From Acaryochloris marina S15 (GTDB lineage: Bacteria; Cyanobacteriota; Cyanobacteriia; Thermosynechococcales; Thermosynechococcaceae): a stretch of DNA of 32,000 nucleotides. The stretch lies in assembly GCF_018336915.1 (NCBI RefSeq), contig NZ_CP064923.1:1260001-1292000 (forward strand), written 5' to 3'. Below the pieces are notes generated by a model. That model was not told the origin of the DNA and did not search any database. It was given only the letters and a program-made list of their open reading frames with translations. The position numbers were made by a program, and so were the translations under genes. The number at the start of each line of letters is the position of its first letter. The first letter of the stretch is position 1. This document shows positions 3,067-21,085 of this stretch, piece by piece.

Positions 3067-3498
3067 ATGAAACGCAAACTCTTAGTGGTTTTTGCATTCC
3101 TCACCCCTTTGCTCTGGGCTCGTCCTGTCCAAGCGGCAGATCCTGTTCAGGTCCAGCAGCTTTTAACGACTAACTCCTGCGAAGGGTGTGATCTTTCAGG
3201 TGTAGATCTGCGGCAAGCTCATCTGATTGGAGCTGACTTGCGGAATGCTGATTTGACGGGTGCTCAACTGCAAGAAGCCAATTTAGAAGGCGCAGATTTA
3301 ACTGGGGCGAGTCTGAAGCAAGCCGATTTGACGGATGCCTTTCTCACCAATGCCAGCCTGAATCTCACCCGTTTGGAGTCCGTGAACATGACCCGAGCCC
3401 GACTCTACAATGTCGAAGCGCGGGGAGCAGTTATTGCCAATATTAATCTAACAGATGTCAAAATGTGGGGTACTCCTATTAGCATCGGTGGCGAATAG
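3067..3498 (+). CDS. Secreted pentapeptide-repeat protein
   Basis: Signal peptide MKRKLLVVFAFLTPLLWARPVQA, then tandem A(D/N)Lxx pentapeptides (ADLRNADLTGAQLQEANLEGADLTGASLKQADLTDAFL). An AAGGAGGA Shine-Dalgarno sequence lies just upstream of the ATG. Confidence 0.9.
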   Translation: MKRKLLVVFAFLTPLLWARPVQAADPVQVQQLLTTNSCEGCDLSGVDLRQAHLIGADLRNADLTGAQLQEANLEGADLTGASLKQADLTDAFLTNASLNLTRLESVNMTRARLYNVEARGAVIANINLTDVKMWGTPISIGGE

Positions 3499-3574
3499 GA
3501 GTCCCTGAAAATCGCGACTTGAGCTGGTAATTTCTCCAGTAACGATGAGGTATGAGTTCTAAATCCGCTAGACT

Positions 3575-3621
3575 TTCACACCTATTAATTGAGCCTTTGC
3601 ACCTCAATTAATAGGTGTGAA
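3575..3621. terminator. Perfect 19-bp-stem hairpin between convergent genes (candidate bidirectional terminator)
   Basis: ttcacacctattaattgag (3575-3593) and ctcaattaataggtgtgaa (3603-3621) are exact reverse complements with a 9-nt loop. The hairpin starts 12 nt after the stop of gene G (3633) and 77 nt after the pentapeptide gene stop. Confidence 0.65.
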
Positions 3622-3632
3622 GTGGCAGACAC

Positions 3633-6600
3633 CTACTTTACGTTGGCCCGAAACCGAACGGCACCGTAAGAAGTTGCCGGGGTACCTACGCCCGTTGTCT
3701 GGGGTAAGTCACCTAAGTTAACGACAATGGCACCGTTGTCTTCTGTTTGAGCGGGGGCATTATCACAAACTGCAGGCAAAGAGGAACCCGGTGGGTAATA
3801 CTGAGCGGTATCTCCATCTGCATCGTTGGTAAATGAGAGAAGACTGCCGTTGTATTCGACTGTAATGCCCCGATTAGCTCCGATGCCTCCACTAGGGGCA
3901 GGGGTTACGGCGTTAAACGCATCAGGCACAAAGGTTTGGAAACTGGGAACTTTATCGCAGAATTGGACATCCATGGCCGTTGAAGTACCCGTTGATAGGA
4001 AATAGATGGTGTACTCTATCTCGTCCCCTGGACGGGTTTGACCCCCATTGGTGGCCCCCAGTAAAAAGGTGCTTGGAGTGGGCCAGTATTCTGTATCCAA
4101 GGGAGTTGGCGCAGGGCTATTGAGGGTATTGTCGTCGTACTCATAGCTGGGGTCATCAACGTAAACATTGAGGTTAGTGCCCCCATTCGCTGTGAGACCA
4201 TTTACACGGGTGATCCGCTTGACCAATAACACATTGGGGTTGTTGGTTGCAGGTGGGCAAAGTGAGCGTAACAAGCTGGTCATATCGTCCGCTAAGTCAT
4301 CATAGGTATTGACTTCTACATAATCTGCAGAATTAGCATTATCCAGCGCAGCATTAAATTGCGTGGTATTACTACCATCGGTTATACCCAAGAAATCATT
4401 GATATCTAAATTTTGGATGCCAATTCCATAAACATGAGCACCTGCCTGCTTGAATTGCAATGCTTCATCGTTCGGGCTGCCTCCTGTATTGATATTGCCA
4501 TCTGCGAAGAAGAAAACGGCATCAGGACTGCCAGGTGATACCCCCAGAGAAATAGCCTGCTGGAATCCAGCTTCCCAATTGGTGAAGCCCCCGCCAATAT
4601 TGACATAGTTAGTATTTAGAGCACTTTCGAAGGTGGGTAAATTAGCAGCCGTTACGTCGGTGTAATTAATCACTGTGGCACTGGAAGTATCAAACCGGAC
4701 AATACCAACCCGAGAAGTAATATTGTTATCGACCAAGTAATTGAGCATTGCCATGACCGCATCACGTTGTGCTCGTCGCTCACTGAGATCCACTGAACCA
4801 GATTTATCCAAGATAAACATCATGTCACTGCTCACCTGACAGAAGTTATTATCTATATCTGGATTTTCTGGAGTTGCGATCGCAAGTGTGTAATCTTCTA
4901 CCTCACCATTCCTAGCAAATCCCCCCGGTGTGTTGGCATTGACGTTGACATCTGTGGTGAGGCGAAAACGAGCATAGGTGGTCGTGCCACCTGTCAGCCC
5001 ACTCACGCCGGCCCCAGACCAGGTTAATGCCCCATCTGGAGAACTGTTGCCGCTTTGTACCGTTTGACTGGCATATTCATCAGCCTCAAAAGTGCCATTT
5101 CCATCAAAGTCCACCCAGGCATGTAGGGTAGCCGGCCCCCCAGTATCATTGGTTGCGGAGATATTTGCTGCCTGAATGGTGTAGGAGGTATCGCTGGCGT
5201 TGAGGGCCGCTAAGATCACACCATCCTCATCATCAGGAGAGCCATTGTTATCGTCTCCTAAAGCATTGGCTGTAGGAATGGGACCATTATCGCCATCTCT
5301 TGCAGCACCCAGCTGAAGCGTAGTAGCTGTAGTACCCGCATGGGAGGGAACACCGTAATCGGACGGGGCATCGCTAAAATCGATAACTTGAATATCAGAA
5401 ATATCAAAAGTCCAAGAGTTTTGGCGAGGGCAGCTTGCACCAGAACAGTTGGCAGCCCCCACATCATTCCCAGCAATTATGGTGAAGGTGCTGACCGTGT
5501 CTCCCAGGTAACTATAAACCTCGTAGCGATCGTCTGTGCCAATCCCGTTTTGCACATTCGAAGAATTCTGAATTCGATGACGAATCCCGCCTCCGGTCGG
5601 CGGCACGAGTTCCAACAAGGTTGGATCATCGATAAATACGGTGTCGGCACCGACCACTTCCACAAACTCTCTAACCGCGTTCGCAGCTCCGTTTCCATCA
5701 ACATCCTGAGCACTGAAAAAAACGTTGGTTGCTGCTAAAGGAGTATTTGTTCCTGCTTGAACTAACTGAAAATCAAACTGAATCGAAGAGATGGTATTCG
5801 CTCCGCCATCGTGGCGAATGACCGGCTGAAATCGATCGGGGAACGTATTGTTATCATCCAAGGTGGTGAGGGTGGCATTATTGATATTGCTAACCGTGAC
5901 TAACGCATCAATCCCTTGCCCACCTACGGTAGCGACATTCTGGAAGCGGTAAACGTTCGTTGTGGCGGGCTCTAATGTTGGTGTTGAGTCATTGAAATTT
6001 AGAACGGTAACTTGTAAGAGCTGAGCGTAATTCGACTGCGCTAGTTGCTGAGAAACCATCTGGGGTTCTAGTTCACCCAGCTGATACTCTAAGGTCCAAT
6101 CTCCACCCTGGGTTGCATCACCCGTTGGATTATTGGAGGCAGCCACATCAGCGTTGCTTAGGGCGCTAAGGTTAGAAACAAATGCTTTCCCTTCCGTTGT
6201 CGAGGCAACATTGCATCCATAGAGAAAGATATCTGCCGTTGGCGATAGTGCCGTTTGCCACTGCTGAATTTGTCCCGCCTTTTGGTGGAGAGTGGTTGAA
6301 TTGACCCGTGAGTTTCCCAGATGTAACTGAGCAGCAGATCCATGAGAGATCAAGTGCACTGCTTTAAGATTGCGATAGTTGCTGAGAATATCGCTAATTT
6401 GATCTAGTCCATCTGCGTTTGAATTAATAAAGTGCACAGCAGCCTGGCTAGGCAAATTTTTGAGCAACGCATCTGGGTTGGTTACACCTGCATCAACAAT
6501 AATCACATCCGTCATGGGAGTGGCAAGGAGACGGGTAGAGGTTTGCCCTAAATGAGTTGGAGATTTTGAGTAGGCAGAGACTAGATCATGCTTAGCTTGT

Positions 6601-6740
6601 GGATAAATCTCCATAGCAGCCTGTGAAGGGCTGCTGTAGCCAACACTTCCCACAGCTCCGAATAAAATCAGACCTGCTAATGTCTGCTGGCATTTAGAAG
6701 AGGCGAAGAAGTTTGGCTTGGAAAATCTAGGAAACATCAT
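3633..6740 (-). CDS. Secreted multidomain adhesin-like protein (gene G): DUF4347-like N-domain, GEVED domain, vWA domain with MIDAS, shared C-terminal DUF11-like module
   Basis: Signal peptide ...LAGLILFGAVGSVGYSSPSQA. DUF4347-like block DVIIVDAGV...AVHLISHGSAAQLHLG...IFLYGCNVAS (approx 6096-6512). Literal GEVEDYTL motif preceded by DFSDAPSDYG...AWVDFDGNGTFE (approx 4875-5387). vWA region with DxSxS MIDAS (FILDKSGSV, D at 4806-4808). Last 203 aa are paralogous to the C-terminus of gene F. Confidence 0.85.
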   Translation of the reverse strand: MMFPRFSKPNFFASSKCQQTLAGLILFGAVGSVGYSSPSQAAMEIYPQAKHDLVSAYSKSPTHLGQTSTRLLATPMTDVIIVDAGVTNPDALLKNLPSQAAVHFINSNADGLDQISDILSNYRNLKAVHLISHGSAAQLHLGNSRVNSTTLHQKAGQIQQWQTALSPTADIFLYGCNVASTTEGKAFVSNLSALSNADVAASNNPTGDATQGGDWTLEYQLGELEPQMVSQQLAQSNYAQLLQVTVLNFNDSTPTLEPATTNVYRFQNVATVGGQGIDALVTVSNINNATLTTLDDNNTFPDRFQPVIRHDGGANTISSIQFDFQLVQAGTNTPLAATNVFFSAQDVDGNGAANAVREFVEVVGADTVFIDDPTLLELVPPTGGGIRHRIQNSSNVQNGIGTDDRYEVYSYLGDTVSTFTIIAGNDVGAANCSGASCPRQNSWTFDISDIQVIDFSDAPSDYGVPSHAGTTATTLQLGAARDGDNGPIPTANALGDDNNGSPDDEDGVILAALNASDTSYTIQAANISATNDTGGPATLHAWVDFDGNGTFEADEYASQTVQSGNSSPDGALTWSGAGVSGLTGGTTTYARFRLTTDVNVNANTPGGFARNGEVEDYTLAIATPENPDIDNNFCQVSSDMMFILDKSGSVDLSERRAQRDAVMAMLNYLVDNNITSRVGIVRFDTSSATVINYTDVTAANLPTFESALNTNYVNIGGGFTNWEAGFQQAISLGVSPGSPDAVFFFADGNINTGGSPNDEALQFKQAGAHVYGIGIQNLDINDFLGITDGSNTTQFNAALDNANSADYVEVNTYDDLADDMTSLLRSLCPPATNNPNVLLVKRITRVNGLTANGGTNLNVYVDDPSYEYDDNTLNSPAPTPLDTEYWPTPSTFLLGATNGGQTRPGDEIEYTIYFLSTGTSTAMDVQFCDKVPSFQTFVPDAFNAVTPAPSGGIGANRGITVEYNGSLLSFTNDADGDTAQYYPPGSSLPAVCDNAPAQTEDNGAIVVNLGDLPQTTGVGTPATSYGAVRFRANVK
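3636..4244 (-). repeat. Copy 1 of the shared 203-aa C-terminal module (in gene G)
   Basis: NNPNVLLVKRITRVNG...SYGAVRFRANVK. My manual alignment gives 168/203 identical residues to 7544-8152. Similarity starts abruptly at NNPNVLL. Confidence 0.9.
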
Positions 6741-7052
6741 GAGTCACTGGATGTTGAACAAAATGGAAAAGGGTGTATCCCAAAAAGATAAAACCCCTGA
6801 AATAATGGATAGGTATACGTTTTTTACTTGCGAATAAGAAAAATATGCTGATAAAGCTTGAAATCAGATAAATTTCCCAAAAAAGTCATCTATGGATGTC
6901 TTAAGGTAGAAAGGCTTGCCATCTATTCAGGCAGCAAGAGCTTTTTGCCTAGCAATATCGCAGGTTCTTCCTCCCTCCAATCAGGTAGATAGGAGGCTTC
7001 ACCTCATTCACTCAGAAGAAGTAAAGGGCTATTCAGTAGACTTTTTCTGTAG

Positions 7053-7478
7053 CTATAGTTGACCATTTACAGAGAAAGTCGACCATCTATGGCTATAGTT
7101 GGCCTGCCAAGAGATATTTTTGCCATTAGTAAATAAAAAGACGCATTCACTTTGATGTGCTGCGTCCCGGAATATTACTAGTGGCATGAGCGACTCAAAT
7201 ACCTCGCCTTGGAGCCCATGGCCATATTGATCAAAATTTGCTGGAGACCTGTTAATGCTCTTTAGCAAGCGTTCGTTATTACGAGCTGAACGATCACCAT
7301 AAACAGAAGACGTTGGGTCGTCTTGGTTTGCAATTCATATTTGCGTCCACGGCAACGACCCAAGCCCATACTTAATGTCTATCCCACTCTCACTCCTTGG
7401 GCGGTTATAAACTTGTTCCACGATGCCCACCTCATTGATATCGAGATGGGTGCGTAGGTGGAGAGTAAGCGCTGTCAT
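7053..7478 (-). pseudogene. Unassigned 142-codon frame interrupted by one in-frame TGA (possible gene remnant, or two small ORFs)
   Basis: ATG at 7478 (MTALTLHLRTHLDINEVGIVEQVYNRP...), in-frame TGA at 7335-7337. The same frame continues into track ORF 7053-7268 (..LLKSINRSPANFDQYGHGLQGEVFESLMPLVIF..). I recognise no family. Confidence 0.25.
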
Positions 7479-7540
7479 CAATTCCTGGTAAAGAGCTAGG
7501 CATTTGATGCGGCGTCGATTAGGTATGGAGTCCTAGTGAC

Positions 7541-9778
7541 CTACTTTACCTTGGCCCGGAATTTTAATGCGCCATAGGAAGTGGTAGGGGTTCCTGGAGC
7601 AGTCGATTCAGGTAGATTTCCTAAATTGATCACCACGGCACCATTGTCTTCTGCTTGGGCAGGGGCATTATCACAAGCAGCAGGGAGGGTTGAACCAGGT
7701 GGATAATACTGCGCTGTATCACCATCGGCATCATTGGTATAAGACAAGGGGGTGCCGTTATACTCCACTGCAATGCCTCGATTAGCCCCTACACCACCGC
7801 TGGGAGCTGGGGTTACCGAGTTATAAGCGTCTGGGATAAAAGTCTGAAAGCTGGGGACTTTATCGCATAACTGAACATCTACTGCGGCTTTATCACCTGT
7901 GGATAAGAAATAAATGGTGTACTCAATCTCATCTCCCGGTCGTGTTTCACCCCCATTGGTCGCACCGAGTAGATAGGTGCTGGGAGTTGGCCAATATTCT
8001 GTATCTAGAGGCGTCGGTTCAGGACTATCGAGGGTATTGTCATCGTACGGGTAGTTGGGATCATCAACATAGACATTGAGATTGGTACTGCCATTGGTGG
8101 TGAGGCCATTGACCCGGGTAATGCGCTTAACCAACAACACATTGGGGTTATTGGTGACAGGTGTATCGGTCGTTTCGATAACTAATGGCGTGGTACTACT
8201 ACTGCTGTTGCCGAAAACATAAGTATCGATATGCCGGAGGTTCCCAAATCCACCTGAGCTGAAATTACCCCAGGTGTGCTTACCCGCAGGGGTATTGGAG
8301 AGTGCACCGTTGGGTAACGTCGTGGTCGCACCAGCAGGATTCCCTAGACCCGTAATATCATCCCAATAGACCAGGGTATTACTGGTGTTCGTATTCGAAG
8401 ATGCTCGAAAAATCGTGAGGCCATTTTGTGCGCCACCTCCGCTGGTTTCAGCATCCGTTGCGACAAAGTGATATTCACCCAGTCTGGCTTGCACCTGAGC
8501 GCTGTAATTTCCGACTGGTAGGGTATTGCCGTTAGCATCTTTACCATCCCACTCAACCGATGTCTCCGCATTGGCTTGAGTTGTGCCTAGCAGGAGTACA
8601 TCCCCGGGACCATAGACGCCATCTGGGCCATTGCCATTGCCATCATCTGTGTCAATGATGATGCCATAGGTGCCATCAACGTTACTGGTAAATTTGAAGA
8701 AGCCCGTATCTTGTACACCTGGAGTTGCCGTTGGCGAGAACGTAAAATCAACCCCAGCACTGTCTTCGAATCGTAGATTGGAAATAACTGGGGATTGGGC
8801 GGGGGGTGGACCAATATTGAGGGTTGGATAGCTGAGATAGACCTTATATTGAGGAGTAGCAGAGTTCCCACTGATAGGAACACTCAAACCCGCAACATTG
8901 TTACCCGCAGCATTGGGGGAATCCACCCCCAGCTCATTGGCAATAATCTCGTAGGCAAAACCTGCAAAATTATTCAGGTCCAATTGCCAGACAAAGTTGG
9001 TATTGGGGAAGCCGCCGGGAACTGGAACGTAATAGTTCGTGTCTGCAGCAGAGGCTGAGTTAAATGAATTACCTCGAAACCCCCACACATAAGTCCAGAG
9101 ACGCCCCTGATTGAGTCTAGGATCTGGATCTGTTGCAGTGTCTGGGGTGAGGGTGATATCAAAACGGTTCAGCGTACCATTATTCCCATTTTGAGAGGTG
9201 TTGAACAAGCGGATCTCATACGTACCAGCCCCTTGTCCACCTGCGGCACTATCAGAGTCATACCGAACTAGCGGGTTGGTAATGACACCATTCATATCAC
9301 TAGTGCAAGAAATATTGTTACCAACAGAGCCAGTATCTGCGACTTTAGTGCCTAGAGGGGGAAGGGTCGTGAACTCATTAAAGGTTCCGGGAGGATGGTA
9401 ATAAATTTCTACTTCAACTGAATCAGCATTACCCCGTCCACAGGCAGAGACGTTAATGACTTCCCCAGCCTGAACGTCAACATACAATGGTCTATCCTTC
9501 TGGGTGATGCCTGAAGAAGAAGCACCACTATAGGTCGAATCATACTCTAGCAAGCCTTGAAATTGAGTAGGGACAGAGTTGGTTTCATCGCGAAGTTCAA
9601 GCTGATAGGAACCTTCTGCCAGAGCTTTAGAGGGTACCCACAACATTCCCAGGGTTGTCCCTGCCAGGGCTACTTTGGTGATCCAAGATGGGACCCGAAG
9701 GTACGTTCGATTCTTGTTTGATGTTGAAAAATTTTGATGAGAATTTAGTTTTCTCGCAATTGCATAAAGGTGGTTCAT
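7541..9778 (-). CDS. Secreted adhesin-like protein (gene F) with FlgD-Ig-like segment and shared C-terminal DUF11-like module
   Basis: ATG at 9778 (MNHLYAIARKL...); the track start at 9817 is a TTG. Long signal sequence ends ...VALAGTTLGMLWVPSKALA. Contains a VEWDGKDANGNTLPVGNYSAQVQA motif (FlgD Ig-like pattern). Last 203 aa are paralogous to gene G. Confidence 0.85.
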   Translation of the reverse strand: MNHLYAIARKLNSHQNFSTSNKNRTYLRVPSWITKVALAGTTLGMLWVPSKALAEGSYQLELRDETNSVPTQFQGLLEYDSTYSGASSSGITQKDRPLYVDVQAGEVINVSACGRGNADSVEVEIYYHPPGTFNEFTTLPPLGTKVADTGSVGNNISCTSDMNGVITNPLVRYDSDSAAGGQGAGTYEIRLFNTSQNGNNGTLNRFDITLTPDTATDPDPRLNQGRLWTYVWGFRGNSFNSASAADTNYYVPVPGGFPNTNFVWQLDLNNFAGFAYEIIANELGVDSPNAAGNNVAGLSVPISGNSATPQYKVYLSYPTLNIGPPPAQSPVISNLRFEDSAGVDFTFSPTATPGVQDTGFFKFTSNVDGTYGIIIDTDDGNGNGPDGVYGPGDVLLLGTTQANAETSVEWDGKDANGNTLPVGNYSAQVQARLGEYHFVATDAETSGGGAQNGLTIFRASSNTNTSNTLVYWDDITGLGNPAGATTTLPNGALSNTPAGKHTWGNFSSGGFGNLRHIDTYVFGNSSSSTTPLVIETTDTPVTNNPNVLLVKRITRVNGLTTNGSTNLNVYVDDPNYPYDDNTLDSPEPTPLDTEYWPTPSTYLLGATNGGETRPGDEIEYTIYFLSTGDKAAVDVQLCDKVPSFQTFIPDAYNSVTPAPSGGVGANRGIAVEYNGTPLSYTNDADGDTAQYYPPGSTLPAACDNAPAQAEDNGAVVINLGNLPESTAPGTPTTSYGALKFRAKVK
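7544..8152 (-). repeat. Copy 2 of the shared 203-aa C-terminal module (in gene F)
   Basis: NNPNVLLVKRITRVNG...SYGALKFRAKVK. Both Cys (FCDKVP/LCDKVP and AVCDNAP/AACDNAP) are conserved between copies. The DNA copies differ at many third-codon positions. Confidence 0.9.
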
Positions 9779-9919
9779 AATTCTAACAGAGGAAAATGGA
9801 GACGTTCTACCACCCAAATCGAGCCTTAACCAGAATTATTCACAGTTGATATAAGCATTCATGAGGAAAGTCCTAACAGCAGCCTGAAATAGGCTAGTGT
9901 AGGGCTCCACACAAATGGC

Positions 9920-9938
9920 TTTCGAGAACTTCTCGAAA
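9920..9938. promoter_or_regulatory. 19-nt palindrome (9-bp arms, 1-nt centre) between genes E and F
   Basis: tttcgagaa-c-ttctcgaaa. It lies 55 nt downstream of the gene E stop and about 140 nt upstream of the gene F ATG. It could be a terminator stem or a dimeric-regulator operator. Confidence 0.3.
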
Positions 9939-9992: not shown

Positions 9993-11693
9993 CTACTTAA
10001 GGTCTATTACGACCGCATTGCGGGCCGGTTCAGACGTTCCATAGTCAGGGTGAATTGCGATCGCACTGAATCGATCACCTGCATTGGCATCCGTGAGAGT
10101 GATGGCAAACCGCCCCTCTTCATCGGATTTGACCATGGTCACTGGCTCATTGAGAGGACCTTGCTTACCCTCTTCCATGACCTTGTACAGCACAATTTCT
10201 GTCCCTGGATCGGCTTCCCCATCTAGGTTGACCGCCCCCTCCATTAAATAAAATTCGGAGCTGAGAAACTGAGGCGTATTAAGGCCTCGGTTGGCGGTAT
10301 CGCGCTTACGTTGGTCTGAATTGCGTAAGGGATTTGGACCATCCCCTACTTGGTAGTCTTGCACTCTAGTATTGGATCGAGACGCTAAGTCCACGCGGTT
10401 GATGGAGATGCGAGAGAAGCGGTCGAGAAAACGGTTTTCGCGAGCAATCAAATCGATGCTGAGGCCGTCAAGATTGGCAAATCGATTGTCGAGGATAAAG
10501 TTGCGCTGGCTCGTGGGATAGGAGGTGATTACAACACCCGGACCCGGTTGGTCTTGGATGGTGTTGTTGACGACATGGTGATTGTCACCCATCAGCAGGA
10601 TGGCGGCCCGACGGAATCGTTGGCCATTGTCGGCGATCAGATTTTTCTCAATCATGACCGACCCTTCGGGCTTGAAAAGGTAAACAGCGCTGCCCGCATT
10701 CTGTTGAATCTGGTTGGTATGGATTTTGGTGCCATCAATATCGCCTTCTAGGCGGATGGCATCGGGCATGCCGGCCAAGCCATTCTGTTCAATGATGTTG
10801 TTGGCAATCTCAGTTTGTTCGGCGCGGACGCTGGTAATCACGGCGCTACCGTCGTGATGGGCAATCTGGTTGTTGAGAATGCGCGTGCCAATGGCGTTGT
10901 AGATGGAGACCCCAAAGGCGGATCGAGAACCGGTAGGGGCTGTGCCTTGGGGCGTAATTCCTAAATAGCTATCCTCAATGAGAATTCCTTGGGGGGGAAG
11001 ATCCCGCTCGTCATCGTAGGGATAGGTGACTTGGGGGTTATCTTCTTTAAGACGTTTGGAAGGCAGAAGCCGATGGGCAATAAAAATATCTGCAGGGGGG
11101 GTTGTGGCAGTGGTTTGATGGATGGAGGTAAATCCATAGAGACTCAAGGCTCTGACATGGACCTTATCCGCTGCGAGGGTTAATCCCCGAAAGACTTCTG
11201 TATCCTCGGCTGGGGTCAGGGCAACTACAGGGGCAGGGGCACTGGCATCCCCCTCGGCGAGGGTATAGCCAGCTTGGCTAGTGCCATCAATTAATAGACC
11301 GGGGTTAGTGACGGTGGGCAGCAGGGCCTGCAGGCGAATCGTGGTGTTGTCCCTAGGTAAGTCAAAATCAATCCGGCTATGATCTGTGCTAGGAGTGATT
11401 TGAGCCCGTTCTGCTTCACTCAGGTCGCCTTTGTTAAGCACGCCGTTGGTAATTGCGATCGCTTCTCTTAAGGTAACCACCTCATCGGCCTTAATTTCGC
11501 CATCTAAAGGACTATTAACCGTGACTTGCACCGGAGCAGTAGTCGCTCTAACGGTCTGCGCATGGGCATTTTGGTAAGTACTGATTAGCCCTGCGATGGC
11601 CAGGAAAGAGGTTAAGGAAGCCCAGGCAATAGCCATTCCTGAAGATGGATGGGGAAGGCGGGGAGTTGATTGGAGCGTGCCGCGAGATTTCAT
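9993..11693 (-). CDS. Secreted right-handed parallel beta-helix repeat protein (gene E)
   Basis: ATG at 11693 (MKSRGTLQSTPRLPHPSSGMAIAWASLTSFLAIAGLISTYQNAHA). N-terminal LREAIAITNG...IDFDL...IRLQALLPTV...IDG block. It then has repeated I-x-N-N-x-I turns (ILNNQIAHHDGSAV, IANNIIEQNG, IHTNQIQQNAGSAV, IEKNLIADNG, VVNNTIQDQPGPGV, ILDNRFANLDG). The C-terminus is Ig-like (EIVLYKV...DEEGRFAITL). Confidence 0.8.
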   Translation of the reverse strand: MKSRGTLQSTPRLPHPSSGMAIAWASLTSFLAIAGLISTYQNAHAQTVRATTAPVQVTVNSPLDGEIKADEVVTLREAIAITNGVLNKGDLSEAERAQITPSTDHSRIDFDLPRDNTTIRLQALLPTVTNPGLLIDGTSQAGYTLAEGDASAPAPVVALTPAEDTEVFRGLTLAADKVHVRALSLYGFTSIHQTTATTPPADIFIAHRLLPSKRLKEDNPQVTYPYDDERDLPPQGILIEDSYLGITPQGTAPTGSRSAFGVSIYNAIGTRILNNQIAHHDGSAVITSVRAEQTEIANNIIEQNGLAGMPDAIRLEGDIDGTKIHTNQIQQNAGSAVYLFKPEGSVMIEKNLIADNGQRFRRAAILLMGDNHHVVNNTIQDQPGPGVVITSYPTSQRNFILDNRFANLDGLSIDLIARENRFLDRFSRISINRVDLASRSNTRVQDYQVGDGPNPLRNSDQRKRDTANRGLNTPQFLSSEFYLMEGAVNLDGEADPGTEIVLYKVMEEGKQGPLNEPVTMVKSDEEGRFAITLTDANAGDRFSAIAIHPDYGTSEPARNAVVIDLK

Positions 11694-11725
11694 TATTACC
11701 TCTTGGGGATACAAACTAGGTAGGG

Positions 11726-11763
11726 ATTTAATAGGTGTGATGTCATTTAATAGGTGTGATGTC
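11726..11763. repeat. Perfect tandem direct repeat, 2 x 19 bp (atttaataggtgtgatgtc)
   Basis: Units at 11726-11744 and 11745-11763 are identical. They lie between the gene D hairpin and the gene E start codon. They share the 13-nt core ttaataggtgtga with both arms of the 3575-3621 hairpin. Confidence 0.9.
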
Positions 11764-11771
11764 GGAGATAG

Positions 11772-11809
11772 CACTAAACCTGTCGTTCAGAAGAATGACA
11801 GGTTTAGTG
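11772..11809 (-). terminator. 13-bp perfect stem hairpin immediately after gene D
   Basis: cactaaacctgtc (11772-11784) pairs with gacaggtttagtg (11797-11809), with a 12-nt loop. It begins 7 nt after the gene D stop codon (11816-11818). No clear U-tract follows. Confidence 0.5.
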
Positions 11810-11815: not shown

Positions 11816-14800
11816 CTATCGGACGACTTCAAAACTGGGTTGAGTTTGGGACGCTGCTGGCTCCACGACAACCTCGGGTTCAGACTTGGTATCCACGAGT
11901 TCAGCCTTAGGCTTGGAGACTTTAACTTCAGGCTTAGACTTAACTTCAGGCTTGGAAACGTTCGCTTCAGAGGGAGAAGCAGGGTTTGAAGCTTCTTGGA
12001 CCTGGCCGTTATCTGGTGCAGACTCTTGCTGCTGCGGGGGCGCTACCTTATTTTCACCGAAGCCAAAATCATCAAAGAGATTGTTGTCTAGCTTCAGGGT
12101 GACGCCAAAGTAAGGACCGCTGGCAGAGCGAGAGTTACCAAAGTCACGGTCTCCCACATCTCCAAAAGCGTATCCAGCCGCCAATCGTAAGTTGGGATTG
12201 AGGTAGTAACCGACTTCCGCAGAAGCGCCCACCTCATTAAACCCAGTACTATTTTGGCGAATCCAGCGAACTTCACCGCCAATATCCCAACGGTAGCTAA
12301 TTCGATAGGTGGCCCGCATTTGAGCCAAGGAAATGCTACTAGTGCCGATTAAATCCTGAGCCAGGTAAGACTTGCTATGTCGCCAGCCAAACTTGCCGTA
12401 GAGTTCCCAGCGCCAGTTGGGGGCATAGATAGCCTCTGCTGAGATCAGATGATCCGTGGAGCCGGTGCCGTTGGCAAATAGTAAGGTATCAGGAATCGTG
12501 GAGGGATTCTCGCGATACTCATAGCGGAGTAAGGCGTTGAACTTATCACTATCGGGATTCCGATAGGCCACACCCACTTTCAAGTCTCGGGTTGTACCCA
12601 ACCCAGCCAGGGTTTGGTTCGAAGCACTAGCTTGTTGGTAGCTGGCCAAAACCGTGAGGTCACGGGTGGCTCGACCCAAGGCATTGGCTGTGATGATGGT
12701 ATTGCTGCCCTGAGCGGTATCACTGTACTCAAAACGAGCATTGGCTTGGAAATCAGGGTTGTCTGTATAGGCTAAACCGAGGCTAAAGCTATCGCCGGGG
12801 GTTAAGCCCAAGGCGGAAGCACCAGACCCTAAAGCAAAGGGTTGGGCAAACTGTTGACTGGCAGCGGTTTGTTGCAATGCAGTGTTAAATACATGCTCGT
12901 AGGAGAAATCAGCCCGGAGACCGGGAGCGATGGTCAAGCCCTGCTCAACCCCGAAGTAACCGGCCATGCCCAAGTCACCCATCATGGAGAATTGGCCCCG
13001 AAGGGTGGTATCCGTGGAGAAGGTATGTTGTCCGGCGATATCTAGACTAGTAATAAAGTCATCATCAAACTGGCCCCCGGTCAAGTAGGTGTTATTCAGA
13101 CCAATGGTGACCCCAGGATAAACCTCATATTCCAGACCCACCGAGGTGCGGTTGGGATAAATGGGATCAATTTCCGAAGAGAAGGTGGTCTCGTTCAAGG
13201 CCCGCAAGGTCAGTTTCCGCGTGATCGGTATCCGGGCGGTAGAGCGAATTTGGTCAGTGGTGATGTCCTGGCCCGTGAGACGATCCGTGCGATCGCGTCG
13301 GACGTAGTCCAGACTTACTTCAGAATCGCCGATCCGCTGGAGAACCCCTGCCGTAATCGTGGTCAGAGAGTTATTAACGGGATTACCAGGAGTGGCGGAG
13401 AAACCGGGTTGAATTAAATCTTCAAACAGATCAAGCGGACGAGGCGCAACGCCAAAATTATCCTCATGGTCATAACTGGCTCGCAGCTTAGTATTCCGAG
13501 AGACCGCTGCTAGGACTTCTGCCCCGTAGCGCGTTTGCCCAGGAACAAAGCTAGTGGTGGCATTGTTGGAGAAGCCCACATCAGCCCGCTTAAAATAAGC
13601 TCGACCAGTAATGTCATCTGTCGGCTTCGCTTCAATTTCAACCCGGTAAGCATTGCCGCTCACCGGAGTGGCGAAATCAAGGGAATTATTAGAACGAGCA
13701 TATTCCGCAACTAGGTAGTTATCCTTGCCGAAGGAAACCAACGCATCAGCACCATAGAGTTCAAAGTCTTGGCTACCGCGATTTTCACGGAAATAGGTGG
13801 CCCCCACCCAGCTTTCCTGATCTAAGTTCCGAGAGAACGTATACTGGGCGCGACCACCGAAGGTATCGGTATCCGCATTTTCGCCTTCAAATTGGTAAGT
13901 GGTGACGATTCGGCGAACCAGCACATAGCCATCATCATCGACATCCGTGCGGAGAATCGGGCGTTGGAATTTCAACGTACCGCGATCATAATCTACTTCA
14001 TAGTCAGCCCCGCGACTTAACCGCTCTCGCTTCAATACAGTACCGGGGCGATTGAGTTCTTCCAGCTCTAGGTAAACTTGCTCACTCCCTGGAATCAGCA
14101 ACCGTCGAGATAAGAAATAAAATCCGCTAGTCCCATCGGGAGCAATGGTATCTCGCTGGAAGCCTTCAGTGTTATTGCCGTACAGTGCCGTGAGCTGCAG
14201 ATTACCGATGTTGTAATTGCCCTTAAAGCCATGTAAAGAGCGGCTGGTGGCGGTAAATAACTGAGACGAACGAGAAAATTCTTCCGTATTGTAATCACCC
14301 CACATGAAGTAATCACTGCCGGCACCGGGGACCGGTGAGGTCCGTTCTAACCGTACAAATAAGTTATCGGTGGACGGAGCCGTCACATCCGTGATTGAGT
14401 TATCCCCGTAGGTGGCGTAATTGTTGTAATCACATTCTGTCCCAGAGGCTTTGAACAGGGTCGTTTCGCCGTTGCAGTCCTCATTTAGGGGGCGAGCGCT
14501 ATTAAAGGCACCGGTCAATAACCAATCGCCAATGGAGGTAATACCAAAGGCTTGGGCACGAGCATCGACTTCATACCCATTGTCACCGTCTACAGGTAGG
14601 AACTCGCGGAAGCTGTCGTAAAAGTTGGTGCCCCGACGACCGATCCGGACATCTACAACCCCGGTTAACAGGGCCGAAGGCCGAATGGGAGTGGAAAACT
14701 GAAACTGATGGAACCCTTCCATATTGGCAGCGGTGGCCCGAACTCGCACCAACCCTGCACTAATGCTCGACTGTAAGTCAGCGGTGAATTTACCATCAAT

Positions 14801-15904
14801 GGCTTCCACCTGGAACCCAGGAACATCGGGTTTGTTATCGGTACCAACGAATTTTCCTGATGTGGCTTCTAGGGTGACAATCGCATCCCAGTTCGACTGG
14901 TTACCATTCGAGTCCAGCAAGTAACCCAAGACCTGAGCCGTGGACCGACCATCAGCAGGAACTTTGTTTTGAGCTGTGCGCACCTTAATCTGGGTAGGTT
15001 CACCAGGAACTTCTACCTGGATGGTGGCACTGGGGGTCTCTTGACCGACTTCGTTCACCGTAATGGTATTGACGCCTGCGTCTAGGATGACCCCATACCA
15101 GGTTTGCCGAGTTTTCTGAGTAGCAGAATTGGTCTCAGTTCGACCCACTTGAGCGCTATCAACAGTCTTACCATTGACCCGTAGCTCAACTTTTTGCTCC
15201 GTGCCAAATTCAATAATGACGGTTGCAGAAGGTTTATCAACAACGCTGCCTGGTCCAGGGGTCAGAATTGAAATGCCTGAAGCTGGCGTAGTCGCTGGAG
15301 CTTGAGCTGTTGTAGGTGCTTCAGAAGAAGCAGAAGCAGGTGTCTCAGGCACATCCGAAACTTGGGGCGTGTCCTTAAGGGGTGATGTTTGGGGCTGAGG
15401 TGTGGCAACCGCAGGTTGTGTTTTAGCGGCTGCCTCTTCAGCGATGGCTTCAGTTGTCACTGCTTCTTGTGGGATGGCTTCAGTGGCAACTGCATCTTCA
15501 GCGGGTTGATCACCAACGAGGAGTGTCTCTTGCGCCAGGCTTTCAGGGGCAGCTTCTGCAGCAGGAGTTATTTCCGCTTTAGGGGCAACTGGCTGGGGTT
15601 CCCTAGCGGTTGTTTGGGGTTCACTAACCGTCTGAGGTTCGCCAGCAATGCCAGAATCAGCCACGACCTCTTCGATAATAGGCTCTGGGGTAAGAGCTTC
15701 GTTAATGGACGGCTTTTCGACACTTAAGGTTGGTTCAGCTTGGCTAACGGATGGCTTTTCTGCACTCAGGGTTGATTCGTCTGCAGGCTTAACTTCTTCA
15801 ATGGCTTGGGCATTGGCCAGAGTAGGGGTTAAGACAACACTGGTGCCTGCGACAATTCCGAGAAGTCCAGTTTGCATCCACTGGGAAGAACGTTGATGTT
15901 TCAT
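11816..15904 (-). CDS. Giant predicted outer-membrane beta-barrel protein (gene D) with N-terminal Pro/Glu/Ala-rich spacer, two Ig-like domains and a C-terminal repeat tail
   Basis: Signal peptide MKHQRSSQWMQTGLLGIVAGTSVVLTPTLANA. Residues ~33-205 are P/E/A/T-rich low complexity. Residues ~211-300 are Ig-like. Residues ~301-403 are Big_1-like (VPADGRSTAQVLGYLLDSNGN...VTLEATSGKF...GLVRVRATA). Residues ~405-1282 show alternating amphipathic strand/turn patterns typical of OM barrels, ending ...YFGVTLKLDNNLFDDFGF. An ~80-aa tail follows with SKPEVK repeats. Confidence 0.8.
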   Translation of the reverse strand: MKHQRSSQWMQTGLLGIVAGTSVVLTPTLANAQAIEEVKPADESTLSAEKPSVSQAEPTLSVEKPSINEALTPEPIIEEVVADSGIAGEPQTVSEPQTTAREPQPVAPKAEITPAAEAAPESLAQETLLVGDQPAEDAVATEAIPQEAVTTEAIAEEAAAKTQPAVATPQPQTSPLKDTPQVSDVPETPASASSEAPTTAQAPATTPASGISILTPGPGSVVDKPSATVIIEFGTEQKVELRVNGKTVDSAQVGRTETNSATQKTRQTWYGVILDAGVNTITVNEVGQETPSATIQVEVPGEPTQIKVRTAQNKVPADGRSTAQVLGYLLDSNGNQSNWDAIVTLEATSGKFVGTDNKPDVPGFQVEAIDGKFTADLQSSISAGLVRVRATAANMEGFHQFQFSTPIRPSALLTGVVDVRIGRRGTNFYDSFREFLPVDGDNGYEVDARAQAFGITSIGDWLLTGAFNSARPLNEDCNGETTLFKASGTECDYNNYATYGDNSITDVTAPSTDNLFVRLERTSPVPGAGSDYFMWGDYNTEEFSRSSQLFTATSRSLHGFKGNYNIGNLQLTALYGNNTEGFQRDTIAPDGTSGFYFLSRRLLIPGSEQVYLELEELNRPGTVLKRERLSRGADYEVDYDRGTLKFQRPILRTDVDDDGYVLVRRIVTTYQFEGENADTDTFGGRAQYTFSRNLDQESWVGATYFRENRGSQDFELYGADALVSFGKDNYLVAEYARSNNSLDFATPVSGNAYRVEIEAKPTDDITGRAYFKRADVGFSNNATTSFVPGQTRYGAEVLAAVSRNTKLRASYDHEDNFGVAPRPLDLFEDLIQPGFSATPGNPVNNSLTTITAGVLQRIGDSEVSLDYVRRDRTDRLTGQDITTDQIRSTARIPITRKLTLRALNETTFSSEIDPIYPNRTSVGLEYEVYPGVTIGLNNTYLTGGQFDDDFITSLDIAGQHTFSTDTTLRGQFSMMGDLGMAGYFGVEQGLTIAPGLRADFSYEHVFNTALQQTAASQQFAQPFALGSGASALGLTPGDSFSLGLAYTDNPDFQANARFEYSDTAQGSNTIITANALGRATRDLTVLASYQQASASNQTLAGLGTTRDLKVGVAYRNPDSDKFNALLRYEYRENPSTIPDTLLFANGTGSTDHLISAEAIYAPNWRWELYGKFGWRHSKSYLAQDLIGTSSISLAQMRATYRISYRWDIGGEVRWIRQNSTGFNEVGASAEVGYYLNPNLRLAAGYAFGDVGDRDFGNSRSASGPYFGVTLKLDNNLFDDFGFGENKVAPPQQQESAPDNGQVQEASNPASPSEANVSKPEVKSKPEVKVSKPKAELVDTKSEPEVVVEPAASQTQPSFEVVR

Positions 15905-17680: not shown

Positions 17681-18241
17681 TTACTGAACTGCTACTTCAT
17701 AGACAGCTTGTACAGAAGCCATGGGCTTGAGGGATTCACTATAATCCCACTGAACATGGGTGTAAGCTTCAGCAGGAGCGGGCTCCATTTTGACTGTGCC
17801 GTCGGGCTGAGTTACTTCAACCATGGGCTTTTCAGAATAGCTTTGGCCACCGTCAATGCTATAGGTGAGCTTGGCACCGTTGGCGCGAGCAGAGTCCAAA
17901 ACAAAAGCAGTTTTGTTCGGAATAGGCTGGTTGATGGTTAGCTCAGCAGCAGACTTGTCTCCAGCATTCTCACTCAGCAAGGTATAGCGGAGGACATCAC
18001 CAGGACGGACAGTGACATTGCCTTCTACAGCATCCCAGGAGATTTCTTGCTTACCTTCAGCATCAGTCGTAACGATTTGCTTCTCTGCCGAGAGCACCAT
18101 CTTTACCTTGGGCTGGAGGATTTGCTGGACGAGAGCTTCGCCTGCTTTCTGCAAATTGGCAAGAACAGGAGTGCTGCTAGCGAAAGGAATGGCGACGGCT
18201 ACTGCTAAGACACCGAGACCGATTGATAGACGACGTTTCAT
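17681..18241 (-). CDS. Small secreted single-domain DUF11-like protein (gene B)
   Basis: Signal peptide MKRRLSIGLGVLAVAVAIPFASSTPVLA. One module follows with RPGDVLRYTLLSENAG...LTINQPIPNKTAFV...KLTYSIDGG...VYEVAVQ. Confidence 0.8.
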   Translation of the reverse strand: MKRRLSIGLGVLAVAVAIPFASSTPVLANLQKAGEALVQQILQPKVKMVLSAEKQIVTTDAEGKQEISWDAVEGNVTVRPGDVLRYTLLSENAGDKSAAELTINQPIPNKTAFVLDSARANGAKLTYSIDGGQSYSEKPMVEVTQPDGTVKMEPAPAEAYTHVQWDYSESLKPMASVQAVYEVAVQ

Positions 18242-21001: not shown

Positions 21002-21085
21002 ATGATGTCGTCTTTGAGTTCTTGGTAATGGACAATAGGAAGATAGACATCTTCCGGCAGAGATGAGTTGTAACTGACCCGCCAT

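What the first reader, a model, noticed from the sequence alone, without database searches (positions are those of the whole stretch)
3636..8152. A sharply bounded 203-aa C-terminal module shared by two otherwise unrelated secreted proteins (candidate sorting, anchoring or polymerisation domain)
Seen in sequence: the last 203 residues of G (3636-4244) and of F (7544-8152) align without gaps, with 168/203 identical by my manual count. Similarity begins abruptly at NNPNVLLVKRITRVNG, and upstream sequences are unrelated (DDMTSLLRSLCPPAT versus PLVIETTDTPVT). Both Cys residues are conserved. The DNA copies differ mainly at synonymous positions, which argues for an old duplication under purifying selection rather than recent gene conversion. 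The C-terminal ~160 aa of A and the single domain of B show the same motif order in much more diverged form.

Inference: variable heads sit on a conserved C-terminal module. This is the pattern expected for a domain recognised by a common export/attachment machine (compare T9SS C-terminal domains or pilin polymerisation domains). F and G could be interchangeable distal adhesins.
Basis: partly seen in the sequence, partly recalled or inferred. Interest (0 to 1): 0.75.

Follow-up and report, generated by a model that had tools for sequence, protein, structure and literature searches.

The report
Conserved C-terminal docking domain on cyanobacterial adhesins
Two otherwise unrelated secreted proteins of an Acaryochloris marina strain end in the same 203-residue beta-sandwich domain, which across cyanobacteria always sits at the very C-terminus of variable adhesin-like proteins encoded just downstream of a giant outer-membrane barrel, so it is probably the handle that couples these proteins to an uncharacterised surface-assembly machine.

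Summary
The last 203 residues of G (3636-4244) and F (7544-8152) align without gaps at 168/203 identity (BLASTP E=2e-116). Nothing upstream aligns. Synonymous sites are saturated (dN 0.10, dS 2.6-3.6, omega about 0.03).

The module is a divergent DUF11/TIGR01451-type beta-sandwich (AF2 pLDDT 91) with a conserved 60-residue insertion and a conserved Cys pair. It has no close solved structure, and Pfam DUF11 scores below threshold.

- **Position:** in 76 cyanobacterial genome loci, 128 of 128 copies lie at the extreme C-terminus of ORFs of 218-1932 aa.
- **Heads:** they are highly diverse (SdrD_B, SpaA, GEVED, VWA, DUF4347 and others).
- **Linkage:** of 58 loci with enough upstream flank, 35 have a homologue of the giant barrel protein D within 10 kb, always on the same strand.
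- **Gene order:** A-B-C-D-(E)-cargo is conserved.
- **Other lineages:** related heads there end in RTX, T9SS or LPXTG signals.

Best reading: a docking or anchoring domain for a D-centred outer-membrane apparatus. It would be analogous to the FimH pilin domain or a T9SS CTD, but it belongs to neither family. This function is inferred, not shown. I found no paper on this system.

One nuance: F's module is a mosaic, and its head differs from the one at that position in strain MBIC11017.

The parts
3636..4244 (-). C-terminal module (CTD) of G, 203 aa. DUF11-class beta-sandwich that ends the protein at ...YGAVRFRANVK-stop.
   Evidence: 83% identical to the F module. (TIGR01451 26.4 bits at aa 903-940). 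(AF2 pLDDT 91.3, 9 strands). (invariant K9, R10, T12, Y78, T79, I80, C96, D97, D145, G171, G194, F198, V202).
4245..6740 (-). Head of G. Sec signal peptide, DUF4347 (aa 79-242, nt 6015-6506), GEVED (aa 539-619, nt 4884-5126) and VWA (aa 639-803, nt 4332-4826).
   Evidence: Pfam E=4.9e-55, 1.4e-11 and 4.7e-13. (100% identical protein P0294 named 'DUF4347 domain-containing protein [Acaryochloris marina]').
7544..8152 (-). C-terminal module (CTD) of F, 203 aa. It is a mosaic: the N-terminal half is G-type, and the C-terminal half is closest to the module at the F position in A. marina MBIC11017.
   Evidence: Mosaic.
8153..9817 (-). Head of F. Signal peptide followed by a beta-rich region with a FlgD_ig-like segment (aa 413-445). 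It is unrelated to G's head, and absent from the same position in MBIC11017.
   Evidence: FlgD_ig E=6.5e-7. (no similarity to G's head). (no nucleotide homology to L004 at this position). (related heads at 45-48% identity in L012 and L018, 37% in L051).
9993..11774 (-). E: secreted right-handed beta-helix protein. Present between D and the module-bearing genes in about half of the related loci that carry D.
   Evidence: Beta_helix E=2e-10, NosD E=1.3e-7. (E homologues directly after D in many loci).
11816..15904 (-). D: 1362-aa outer-membrane protein. Signal peptide, Pro/Glu/Ala-rich linker, Ig-like domains (Big_1/invasin-like, aa 303-396), then a very large beta-barrel region.
   Evidence: weak Big_1, Invasin_D3 and DUF2490 hits. 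(at least 1624 homologues; all named sources are cyanobacteria; NCBI names them 'TonB-dependent receptor' or 'Ig-like domain-containing'). (AF2 pLDDT 71, about 46 strands after the Ig domain). (Foldseek: SlpA, SprA, MtrB, FimD, LptD, TBDTs).
15904..17502 (-). C: secreted protein with a DUF11 domain and a SdrD_B-like C-terminal domain. Its stop codon overlaps D's start codon by one base, which suggests translational coupling.
   Evidence: coordinates. (DUF11 E=8e-7, TIGR01451 E=2e-11, SdrD_B E=5e-4). (about 52% identity in other orders, always just before D).
17681..18241 (-). B: 186-aa secreted protein with a single DUF11 domain.
   Evidence: TIGR01451 30 bits. (shares only the DUF11 core with the module).
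18347..21085 (-). A: first gene of the cluster. N-terminal domain (about aa 30-280), DUF7925 (aa 291-479), low-complexity linker, and a C-terminal beta-rich domain that ends the protein. Its N-terminal domain recurs as the head of 22 of 127 plus-strand module-bearing ORFs in other genomes.
   Evidence: DUF7925 E=1e-62. (the A N-terminal domain at the N-terminus of module-bearing ORFs). (C-terminus related to the module only at motif level).

Best explanation
The 203-aa module is a specialised, strictly C-terminal DUF11-class beta-sandwich domain. It probably couples variable, Sec-exported, adhesin-like heads to a conserved cyanobacterial outer-membrane apparatus. That apparatus is encoded by the A-B-C-D-(E) cluster and centres on the giant barrel protein D.

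Proposed sequence of events:
1. F and G cross the inner membrane by Sec; both have signal peptides.
2. Their common C-terminal domain is recognised at the periplasmic face or in the lumen of D, possibly with C and/or B acting as partner or chaperone.
3. The beta-rich head is passed outward.
4. The module stays at the base as the anchor or joining element.

F and G would then be alternative tips displayed on one platform. The gene order (first A, then small B, then C translationally coupled to barrel D, then adhesins with an N-terminal head and a C-terminal common domain) mirrors fimA-I-C-D-F-G-H. I therefore favour an usher-like assembly and anchoring role over a cleaved secretion tag.

**Shown:** the domain, its boundaries, purifying selection, its C-terminal position, head diversity, and synteny with D.

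**Inferred:** recognition by D or C, surface display, and anchoring.
For: 1. **Discrete, constrained domain.** F and G share 168/203 residues with unrelated heads. Omega is 0.03-0.04 with saturated dS. Between the window and MBIC11017, G's module is 95% identical while its head is 80%.

2. **Always at the extreme C-terminus.** This holds for 128 of 128 copies in 76 genome loci, with only 0-6 residues after the last aligned position. Host reading frames span 218-1932 aa, with up to four module-bearing genes in tandem. All full-length hits among 1.84 billion representative proteins also end at the C-terminus.

3. **Variable heads typical of fibrillar adhesins.** Among 43 proteins scanned: DUF11 in 22, SdrD_B in 22, DUF7619 in 15, SpaA in 14, CarboxypepD_reg in 13, GEVED in 12, plus VWA, DUF4347, beta-helix and bMG3.

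4. **Physical linkage to the machine.** Of 58 loci with at least 9 kb of upstream flank, 35 carry a D homologue within 10 kb. All 35 are on the same strand and 34 are upstream. The order A-B-C-D-(E)-cargo is conserved from Acaryochloris to Nostocales.

5. **Evolves at the rate of the core parts.** Across orders the module is 45-57% identical, similar to D (50-56%) and C (about 52%). A (about 35%) and B (about 41%) are less conserved.

6. **D is a very large outer-membrane barrel.** Its nearest structural matches include protein-translocating or surface-layer barrels: SlpA, T9SS SprA and the FimD usher. C's stop overlaps D's start.

7. **'Choice-of-anchor' pattern.** Close cyanobacterial homologues of G's head all carry the module. 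Remote DUF4347 or GEVED heads in other lineages end in RTX repeats (T1SS), a T9SS Por_Secre_tail (P0374) or an LPXTG tail (P0372).

8. **Envelope location is plausible.** The Cys pair is conserved and every cluster protein has a signal peptide.

9. **Heads are exchanged on a conserved module.** The head at the F position differs between the window strain and MBIC11017, while the 3' part of the module is retained at 80% nucleotide identity.
Against: - There is no experimental or structural evidence of any contact between the module and D, C or B.
- No paper on this operon was found.
- 23 of 58 informative loci have no D within 10 kb. An example is a solitary copy in Mastigocoleus next to a transposase. 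Genome-wide co-occurrence could not be tested.
- The AF2 model is a complete sandwich that uses its own first and last strands at high confidence. This gives no sign of the missing strand expected for donor-strand polymerisation.
- Foldseek finds only weak, generic beta-sandwich matches, with TM about 0.3.
- D's model has only moderate confidence (pLDDT 71), and its structural matches are generic large barrels with TM about 0.2.
- The cluster encodes no inner-membrane or energy-coupling component.
- DUF11 domains are common passive 'beads' in surface proteins (bioRxiv 10.1101/2025.08.19.671072).
Confidence: 0.55

Rival explanations
1. T9SS-like secretion tag. The module is a C-terminal signal read by the giant barrel D acting as a translocon. 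It is then cleaved or exchanged for a lipid or glycan anchor after export, and cargo genes may lie anywhere in the genome.
For: - The module is a strictly C-terminal beta-sandwich on very diverse cargo.
- D is among the largest predicted barrels, and SprA is its second-best Foldseek match.
- Some cargo arrays and solitary copies lie away from D.
- A GEVED-head homologue elsewhere carries a true T9SS tail.
Against: - There is no hit to T9SS CTD models.
- No T9SS CTD appears among the top 50 Foldseek matches.
- At 203 aa the module is twice the size of a T9SS CTD.
- The cluster has no motor, sortase-like or PorV-like gene.
- There are only about 1-4 cargo genes per locus, mostly in the operon.
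- The very strong constraint over the whole 203 aa (omega 0.03) suits a retained structural part better than a discarded tag.
Confidence: 0.2
2. Machine-independent wall, outer-membrane or matrix-binding stalk domain. The module is a conserved Ig-like base that binds LPS, the S-layer, peptidoglycan or exopolysaccharide, possibly through Ca2+. The synteny with D would reflect co-regulation only.
For: - It belongs to the DUF11 class, a generic bead domain of surface filaments.
- It has conserved acidic DDN, DGD and DTD-type loops and invariant K9 and R10.
- 23 of 58 informative loci have no D nearby.
Against: - Ordinary DUF11 beads occur in internal tandem arrays. Such giant repeat proteins match only the core of the profile (positions about 94-206), whereas the full module is single-copy and terminal.
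- The same-strand, immediately downstream position after D or E in 34 loci across several orders is hard to explain by co-regulation alone.
Confidence: 0.15
3. Polymerisation (pilin) domain. Modules join head-to-tail with each other or with A or B, by strand exchange or a covalent bond through the invariant lysine, and build a fibre whose tips are F and G.
For: - The best, though weak, Foldseek matches are Gram-positive pilus backbone proteins: 4uzg, RrgB and GBS.
- K9 is invariant in the first strand.
- VWA-containing heads resemble the tip pilins of sortase pili (own knowledge).
- A, B, F and G all end in a beta-rich or DUF11-like domain.
- The gene order resembles the fim operon.
Against: - There is no LPXTG motif and no sortase.
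- The last strand has no conserved Asn or Asp that could serve as an isopeptide partner.
- The AF2 fold is self-complete.
- The module cannot be related to A's C-terminus by profile comparison, and shares only the DUF11 core with B.
- A two-domain protein with a single module could only cap a polymer, not build one.
Confidence: 0.1

Closest known systems
DUF11 / TIGR01451 'B_ant_repeat' domain (PF01345)
   Same: They share the core motif PGD-x-[IV]-x-Y-x-[IV] followed by the x-D-x-[IV]-P strand, and the Ig-like beta-sandwich fold. TIGR01451 scores 26.4 bits on G against a cut-off of 24. 17 of 27 family members give weak PF01345 hits.
   Different: - Only about 40 of the 203 residues match the models. 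PF01345 scores 14.7 bits against a cut-off of 24.6, and F falls below the TIGR01451 cut-off.
- The module has a conserved 60-residue insertion after strand 1, a conserved Cys pair and a fixed ...RF[RQK]xxV[KR] C-terminus.
- It is single-copy and terminal rather than an internal tandem repeat.
Pilin domain of two-domain chaperone-usher adhesins (FimH, PapG) within fim- or pap-type operons
   Same: The architecture is the same: a variable N-terminal binding head on a conserved C-terminal domain. The adhesin genes lie last in an operon ordered structural gene(s), periplasmic beta-sandwich protein, large outer-membrane barrel, adhesins. FimD complexes appear among D's Foldseek matches.
   Different: - No PapD-like chaperone or usher Pfam family matches C or D.
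- D is far larger than a 24-strand usher.
- The module is about 200 aa and predicted to be self-complete, not a roughly 150-aa Ig fold that lacks its last strand.
Type IX secretion C-terminal domains (TIGR04183 / PF18962) and the SprA translocon
   Same: Both are strictly C-terminal beta-sandwich domains on highly diverse cargo, paired with an exceptionally large outer-membrane barrel. SprA is the second-best structural match of D.
   Different: - No sequence or fold match to T9SS CTDs.
- The module is twice as long.
- No GldKLMN, PorV or PorU-type partners are present in the cluster.
- Cargo genes are few and mostly encoded in the operon.
Gram-positive sortase pilins and VWA tip adhesins (RrgA, SpaC, GBS104; backbone pilins RrgB, SAK_1440)
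   Same: The best Foldseek matches of the module are pilus backbone domains (4uzg, 2x9y, 2xtl). G combines a VWA head with Ig-like stalk and base domains. SpaA and SdrD_B domains are common in the heads.
   Different: - The matches are weak (E at best 5e-3, TM about 0.27).
- There is no LPXTG motif, no sortase, and no canonical Lys-Asn/Glu isopeptide triad.
- The organism is diderm and has a dedicated outer-membrane barrel.
Cyanobacterial tubular (CT) pilus cluster of Microcystis aeruginosa (Ricca et al. 2025, PMC12397347)
   Same: It is a cyanobacteria-specific surface-appendage cluster. The paper describes a beta-rich adhesin-like protein, a cell-surface protein and an outer-membrane porin proposed as an usher-like platform.
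   Different: - The CT cluster is defined by a 12-kDa pilin, a pilin-like protein, an O-GlcNAc transferase and an FkbM methyltransferase. None of these is present here.
- Sequence searches of the PDB with the module profile and with B found nothing, including no CT pilin.

Membership tests
DUF11 (Pfam PF01345) / TIGR01451 repeat | HMM match at or above the curated cut-off | tested here: inconclusive
   TIGR01451 scores 26.4 bits on G (cut-off 24) and 22.9 bits on F, which is below it. PF01345 scores 14.7 bits on the module (cut-off 24.6) and covers only aa 69-110. This is superfamily-level membership, not a canonical member.
DUF11 (Pfam PF01345) / TIGR01451 repeat | Ig-like beta-sandwich of about 100-115 aa, usually in tandem arrays | tested here: not met
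   The module is 203 aa with a 60-aa insertion. It is single-copy and terminal in 128 of 128 cases. Tandem-repeat giants match only the core of the profile.
T9SS C-terminal sorting domain | Match to TIGR04183, TIGR04131 or PF18962 | tested here: not met
   No such hit in Pfam or NCBIfam at E<=0.1.
T9SS C-terminal sorting domain | Structural similarity to solved T9SS CTDs (about 80-100 aa, 7-stranded sandwich) | tested here: not met
   No T9SS CTD among the top 50 Foldseek PDB matches. The module is 203 aa.
T9SS C-terminal sorting domain | Genome encodes the T9SS core (SprA, PorV, GldK/L/M/N, PorU) | not testable with these tools
   Only a 32-kb window was available, and none of these genes is in it. 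D resembles SprA only as a generic large barrel.
Chaperone-usher pilus adhesin (pilin domain) | Cognate PapD-like chaperone (PF00345/PF02753) and usher (PF00577) in the operon | tested here: not met
   C, B and D give no hit to these families.
Chaperone-usher pilus adhesin (pilin domain) | Incomplete Ig fold that is completed by a donor strand | tested here: inconclusive
   The AF2 monomer is a complete sandwich whose own first strand (5-14) and last strand (193-202) have pLDDT of 90 or more. A monomer prediction cannot exclude strand exchange.
Sortase-assembled pilin / LPXTG surface protein | C-terminal LPXTG-type motif, hydrophobic segment and charged tail | tested here: not met
   All copies end in ...RF[RQK]xxV[KRDN] with no hydrophobic tail.
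Microcystis CT pilus system | CT pilin or pilin-like gene with adjacent OGT and FkbM methyltransferase | tested here: not met
   The cluster composition differs. PDB sequence searches with the module profile and with B found nothing.

The most novel reading that the evidence does not exclude
The conserved A-B-C-D-(E) cluster, together with proteins tagged by this C-terminal domain, is a previously undescribed and apparently cyanobacteria-wide outer-membrane protein display or assembly pathway. A giant barrel, among the largest single-chain barrels predicted, would act as usher or translocon. The 203-aa DUF11-derived domain would be its universal docking signal, and heads would be exchanged between strains by recombination within that domain.
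Probability: 0.4. Interest if true: 0.85.

Novelty: new variant of a known kind. Interest (0 to 1): 0.62.

Why it matters
How cyanobacteria place large adhesins on their surface is poorly understood. They lack T9SS and classical chaperone-usher systems for such proteins.

If this reading is right, there is a family-wide rule: a variable head, a fixed 203-aa C-terminal domain, and a giant barrel encoded upstream. The barrel family has at least 1,600 homologues (90%-identity clusters), and every source name given is cyanobacterial. The module family has more than 1,000 representative (50%-identity) clusters. Such a rule would define a new surface-display route.

That would make the adhesin repertoire of cyanobacteria predictable from sequence. 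It would explain strain-level head swapping. It would also offer a portable tag for surface display in cyanobacterial biotechnology.

Tried and rejected
- **Recent gene conversion or a recent duplicate.** Rejected. dS between the two copies is saturated (2.6-3.6), against about 0.2 between orthologues of two strains.
- **Simple old duplication.** Refined. F's module is a mosaic.
- **A's C-terminus is a diverged copy of the module.** Not supported by BLASTP or by local or global hhalign.
- **T9SS CTD, chaperone-usher pilin or LPXTG pilin.** Membership tests failed.
- **Identity with the Microcystis CT-pilus cluster.** Rejected after reading the paper. The components differ and there is no PDB sequence match.
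- **PDB sequence search with the module profile and with B.** No hits.
- **Foldseek of the module.** Only weak, generic sandwich matches.
- **Plasmid collection.** Two weak hits, unannotated or 'hypothetical protein', so uninformative.
- **Promoter and terminator scan of 2800-22500.** Counts equal the shuffled expectation, so it gave no information on operon structure.
- **Neighbourhoods of three database homologues.** One was not on record. One was solitary beside a transposase. One sat in an SdrD_B gene array without D.
- **Literature searches** on DUF11, TIGR01451, cyanobacteria, usher and sorting domain. Nothing on this operon.
- **Isopeptide or disulfide geometry in the model.** Could not be measured, because model coordinates are not exposed.

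Full report
**1. The observation**

All relevant genes lie on the minus strand:

| Gene | Coordinates | Length (aa) |
|---|---|---|
| G | 3633-6740 | 1035 |
| F | 7541-9817 | 758 |
| E | 9993-11774 | 593 |
| D | 11816-15904 | 1362 |
| C | 15904-17502 | 532 |
| B | 17681-18241 | 186 |
| A | 18347-21085 | 912 |

BLASTP of the whole proteins gives one significant HSP: G 830-1035 against F 553-758, 83% identity, E=2e-116. Nothing else scores better than E=0.87.

At the DNA level 457/609 positions are identical. The differences fall 30/14/108 on codon positions 1/2/3. In 30-nt windows, identity rises from 6-9 of 30 to 21-26 of 30 exactly at the module start, and it drops again after the stop codon.

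dN is 0.10, dS is 2.6 (NG86) or 3.6 (ML), and omega is 0.03-0.04. The G orthologue of A. marina MBIC11017 differs from the window's G at only dS about 0.2.

**2. Source organism**

G is 100% identical to a protein that NCBI names 'DUF4347 domain-containing protein [Acaryochloris marina]', on a 5.88-Mb contig. The locus is syntenic with A. marina MBIC11017 at 83-87% nucleotide identity.

**3. What the module is**

NCBIfam places a 38-residue stretch (G 903-940) in TIGR01451, the DUF11-type repeat. It scores 26.4 bits for G and 22.9 bits for F, against a cut-off of 24. Pfam DUF11 scores only 14.7 bits against a cut-off of 24.6, and it covers residues 69-110 of the module.

AlphaFold2 with a 27-sequence alignment gives a confident model (pLDDT 91.3, pTM 0.89). 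It has nine strands. The first is residues 5-14 (VLLVKRITRV) and the last is 193-202 (YGAVRFRANV). A well-ordered, mostly non-regular 60-residue insertion (15-74) lies between strands 1 and 2.

These positions are invariant across the 27 homologues: K9, R10, T12, Y78, T79, I80, C96, D97, D145, G171, G194, F198 and V202. C160 is present in at least 90%.

Foldseek against the PDB finds only weak matches. The best is a group B streptococcal pilus backbone protein (E=5e-3, TM 0.27), followed by TTHA1873, RrgB and generic sandwiches. A profile search of PDB sequences finds nothing.

The module is therefore a divergent, elaborated member of the DUF11 Ig-like superfamily, and no close relative has been solved.

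**4. Distribution, position and heads**

- **Genome scan.** A scan of 185,579 species genomes with the motif EYTIYF[LI]SxG returned 484 confirmed loci. Of the 76 loci kept, 72 are labelled cyanobacterial and three only 'uncultured bacterium'. The remaining one, a MAG labelled 'Gracilibacteria', carries the whole cyanobacterial operon.
- **Position.** In those 76 loci I found 128 module copies. Every copy lies at the extreme C-terminus, with 0-6 residues after the aligned end. The host open frames range from 218 to 1932 aa, and up to four module-bearing genes sit in tandem.
- **Profile search.** A search of 1.84 billion representative proteins gave 7079 hits at E<=1e-3 and 1166 at E<=1e-30. All listed full-length matches end at the protein's C-terminus. 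Giant multi-repeat DUF11 proteins match only the core of the profile.
- **Heads.** Among 43 such proteins the heads are very diverse: DUF11 in 22, SdrD_B in 22, DUF7619 in 15, SpaA in 14, CarboxypepD_reg in 13, GEVED in 12, plus DUF6923, DUF7927, bMG3, beta-helix, VWA and DUF4347.
- **A-type heads.** 22 of 127 plus-strand module-bearing ORFs begin with a domain homologous to the N-terminal 250 aa or so of A. One open frame of 516 aa is essentially that domain plus the module.

**5. Linkage to the D cluster**

I ran tblastn of A-E against the loci. Of 58 loci with at least 9 kb of upstream flank, 35 have a D homologue within 10 kb. All 35 are on the same strand and 34 are upstream. The order A-B-C-D-(E)-cargo is conserved from Acaryochloris to Nostoc, Calothrix, Scytonema, Anabaena, Chamaesiphon and Leptolyngbya-like genomes.

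Of the 23 loci without D, 15 are arrays of two to four module-bearing genes. Solitary copies also exist, for example in Mastigocoleus beside a transposase, and that genome also has a locus with D, E and a cargo gene.

Across orders the module is 45-57% identical. D is 50-56%, C about 52%, A about 35% and B about 41%. Between the two Acaryochloris strains, G's module is 95% identical and its head 80%.

**6. The machine**

D has at least 1624 homologues, and every source name given is cyanobacterial. NCBI calls them 'TonB-dependent receptor' or 'Ig-like domain-containing protein'. Pfam gives only weak Big_1, Invasin_D3 and DUF2490 hits.

An AF2 model of residues 300-1300 (pLDDT 71) shows an Ig domain followed by about 46 strands. 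Foldseek matches it to large outer-membrane barrels. These include Deinococcus SlpA (3.8e-10), T9SS SprA (1.9e-9), MtrB, the FimD usher, LptD and TonB-dependent transporters, all at low TM (about 0.2).

C contains a DUF11 domain and a SdrD_B-like domain, and its stop codon overlaps D's start codon. B is a single DUF11 domain. E is a beta-helix protein. All seven proteins start with Sec-type signal peptides by inspection. The cluster has no inner-membrane or ATPase component.

**7. Relation to B and A**

The module and B share only the DUF11 core (BLASTP E=6e-5; hhalign probability 84%, 44 columns). The module and C likewise share only the core (E=4e-4).

The module and A's C-terminal domain align only over the PGD-x-IEY motif (hhalign probability 11%), and a global alignment fails. 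By eye, A does end in ...FQFRRRIQ, and its last domain starts with ...MKLTKEV. This resembles the module's ends, but it is a lead, not a result.

**8. History of the two copies**

In MBIC11017 the gene at F's position is 832 aa. Its head is unrelated to F's head, and its module is 63% identical to G's.

Window-against-MBIC nucleotide alignment shows D-E at 87% and G at 83%. At the F position only the 3' 438 nt of the module are homologous, at 80%.

| Part of F's module | Closest relative | Identity | dS |
|---|---|---|---|
| N-terminal half | G type | 89.5% aa to MBIC G (76-82% nt) | 2.0 vs window G |
| N-terminal half | MBIC F-position module | 48-62% nt | - |
| C-terminal half | MBIC F-position module | 83.6% aa | 0.84 |
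| C-terminal half | window G | - | 4.2 |

F therefore carries a mosaic module, and its head was replaced by recombination with a breakpoint inside the module. This is consistent with the module acting as the constant part of a head-swapping cassette.

**9. Choice-of-anchor evidence**

Homologues of G's head split into two groups. Close cyanobacterial ones, apart from two truncated entries, carry the module at their C-terminus. Remote DUF4347 or GEVED heads end in RTX repeats (PF00353), a T9SS Por_Secre_tail (P0374), an LPXTG-type tail (P0372) or other tails. The module thus occupies the position that export or anchor signals occupy in other lineages.

**10. Interpretation**

The best-supported reading is that the module is the constant docking or anchoring domain that couples variable, adhesin-like heads to the D-centred outer-membrane apparatus.

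Two features resemble fim- and pap-type chaperone-usher operons. One is the gene order: structural genes, then a beta-sandwich protein translationally coupled to a large barrel, then two-domain adhesins. The other is the small number of cargo genes per locus.

Two other features resemble T9SS. One is the terminal beta-sandwich on diverse cargo. The other is the very large barrel.

Membership in either family fails on every tested defining feature. The recently described Microcystis CT pilus cluster is a different system.

I found no paper on this operon in the held library. That library is incomplete, so prior description elsewhere cannot be excluded.

**11. Limits**

- Function is inferred from synteny, architecture and analogy only.
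- Genome-wide co-occurrence of the module and D could not be tested.
- No complex prediction was available.
- The D model has moderate confidence.
- Model coordinates could not be inspected for disulfide or lysine geometry.

Noticed in passing
window 7544-9817 compared with L004:4624-7137 (A. marina MBIC11017): The gene at the F position carries a completely different head in the two Acaryochloris strains. F's module is a mosaic: its 5' half is G-type, and its 3' half is orthologous to the MBIC11017 gene at the F position. This indicates head replacement by recombination inside the module.
   Followed up: yes
window 11816-15904: D is predicted to have about 46 beta-strands after its Ig domains. 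That would make it one of the largest single-chain outer-membrane barrels, in the size class of SprA and SlpA. NCBI annotates the family as 'TonB-dependent receptor', which is probably a misnomer, since Pfam and NCBIfam gave no TonB-dependent-receptor family hit.
   Followed up: partly
window 15902-15906: The stop codon of C overlaps the start codon of D by one base. This suggests translational coupling and a stoichiometric C-D pair.
   Followed up: no
L016, L071, L076, L078 and other loci: A second, more divergent subfamily of the C-terminal module exists. It is 30-38% identical to G's module and ends in ...[FY]FRF[TV]TKV[DNKE]x. It often alternates with the RFRxxVK type in tandem cargo arrays downstream of D-E.
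   Followed up: partly
window 18347-21085 (A, aa about 30-280), and for example L076:9095-10642: A's N-terminal domain recurs as the N-terminal head of 22 of 127 plus-strand module-bearing ORFs in other genomes. The smallest such ORF is little more than this domain plus the module. A therefore looks like a cargo paralogue with a different C-terminal domain.
   Followed up: partly
L027 (JAAUUT010000017.1): A contig assigned to a 'Candidatus Gracilibacteria' MAG carries the full cyanobacterial C-D-E-cargo locus at about 50% identity. The contig is probably mis-binned.
   Followed up: no
window 21086-22405: A 1.3-kb non-coding stretch upstream of A has unusually low G+C (0.387, against about 0.48-0.52 elsewhere). 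It is the likely regulatory region of the cluster. No ORF of 80 aa or more is found there.
   Followed up: no
window 6741-7540: An 800-bp spacer lies between F and G, with no ORF of 80 aa or more. Only about 225 nt of it (6929-7153) is weakly conserved (68%) with MBIC11017.
   Followed up: no
window 1180-3498 and 22406-32000: The flanking genes are ordinary. They encode a rhodanese, a LuxR-type regulator, a secreted pentapeptide-repeat protein (3067-3498, plus strand), a Ser/Thr kinase with a long C-terminal region (22406-24310), an NlpC/P60 peptidase with an SH3 domain (24406-25173), adenylate kinase and SecY. A run of short ORFs that were not scanned follows SecY; by position next to secY and adk they are probably ribosomal-protein genes.
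   Followed up: partly
P0297-P0302: Other Acaryochloris proteins share G's DUF4347-GEVED N-terminus at 79-99% identity. They lack the VWA domain but still end in the module, which shows shuffling within the heads as well.
   Followed up: no
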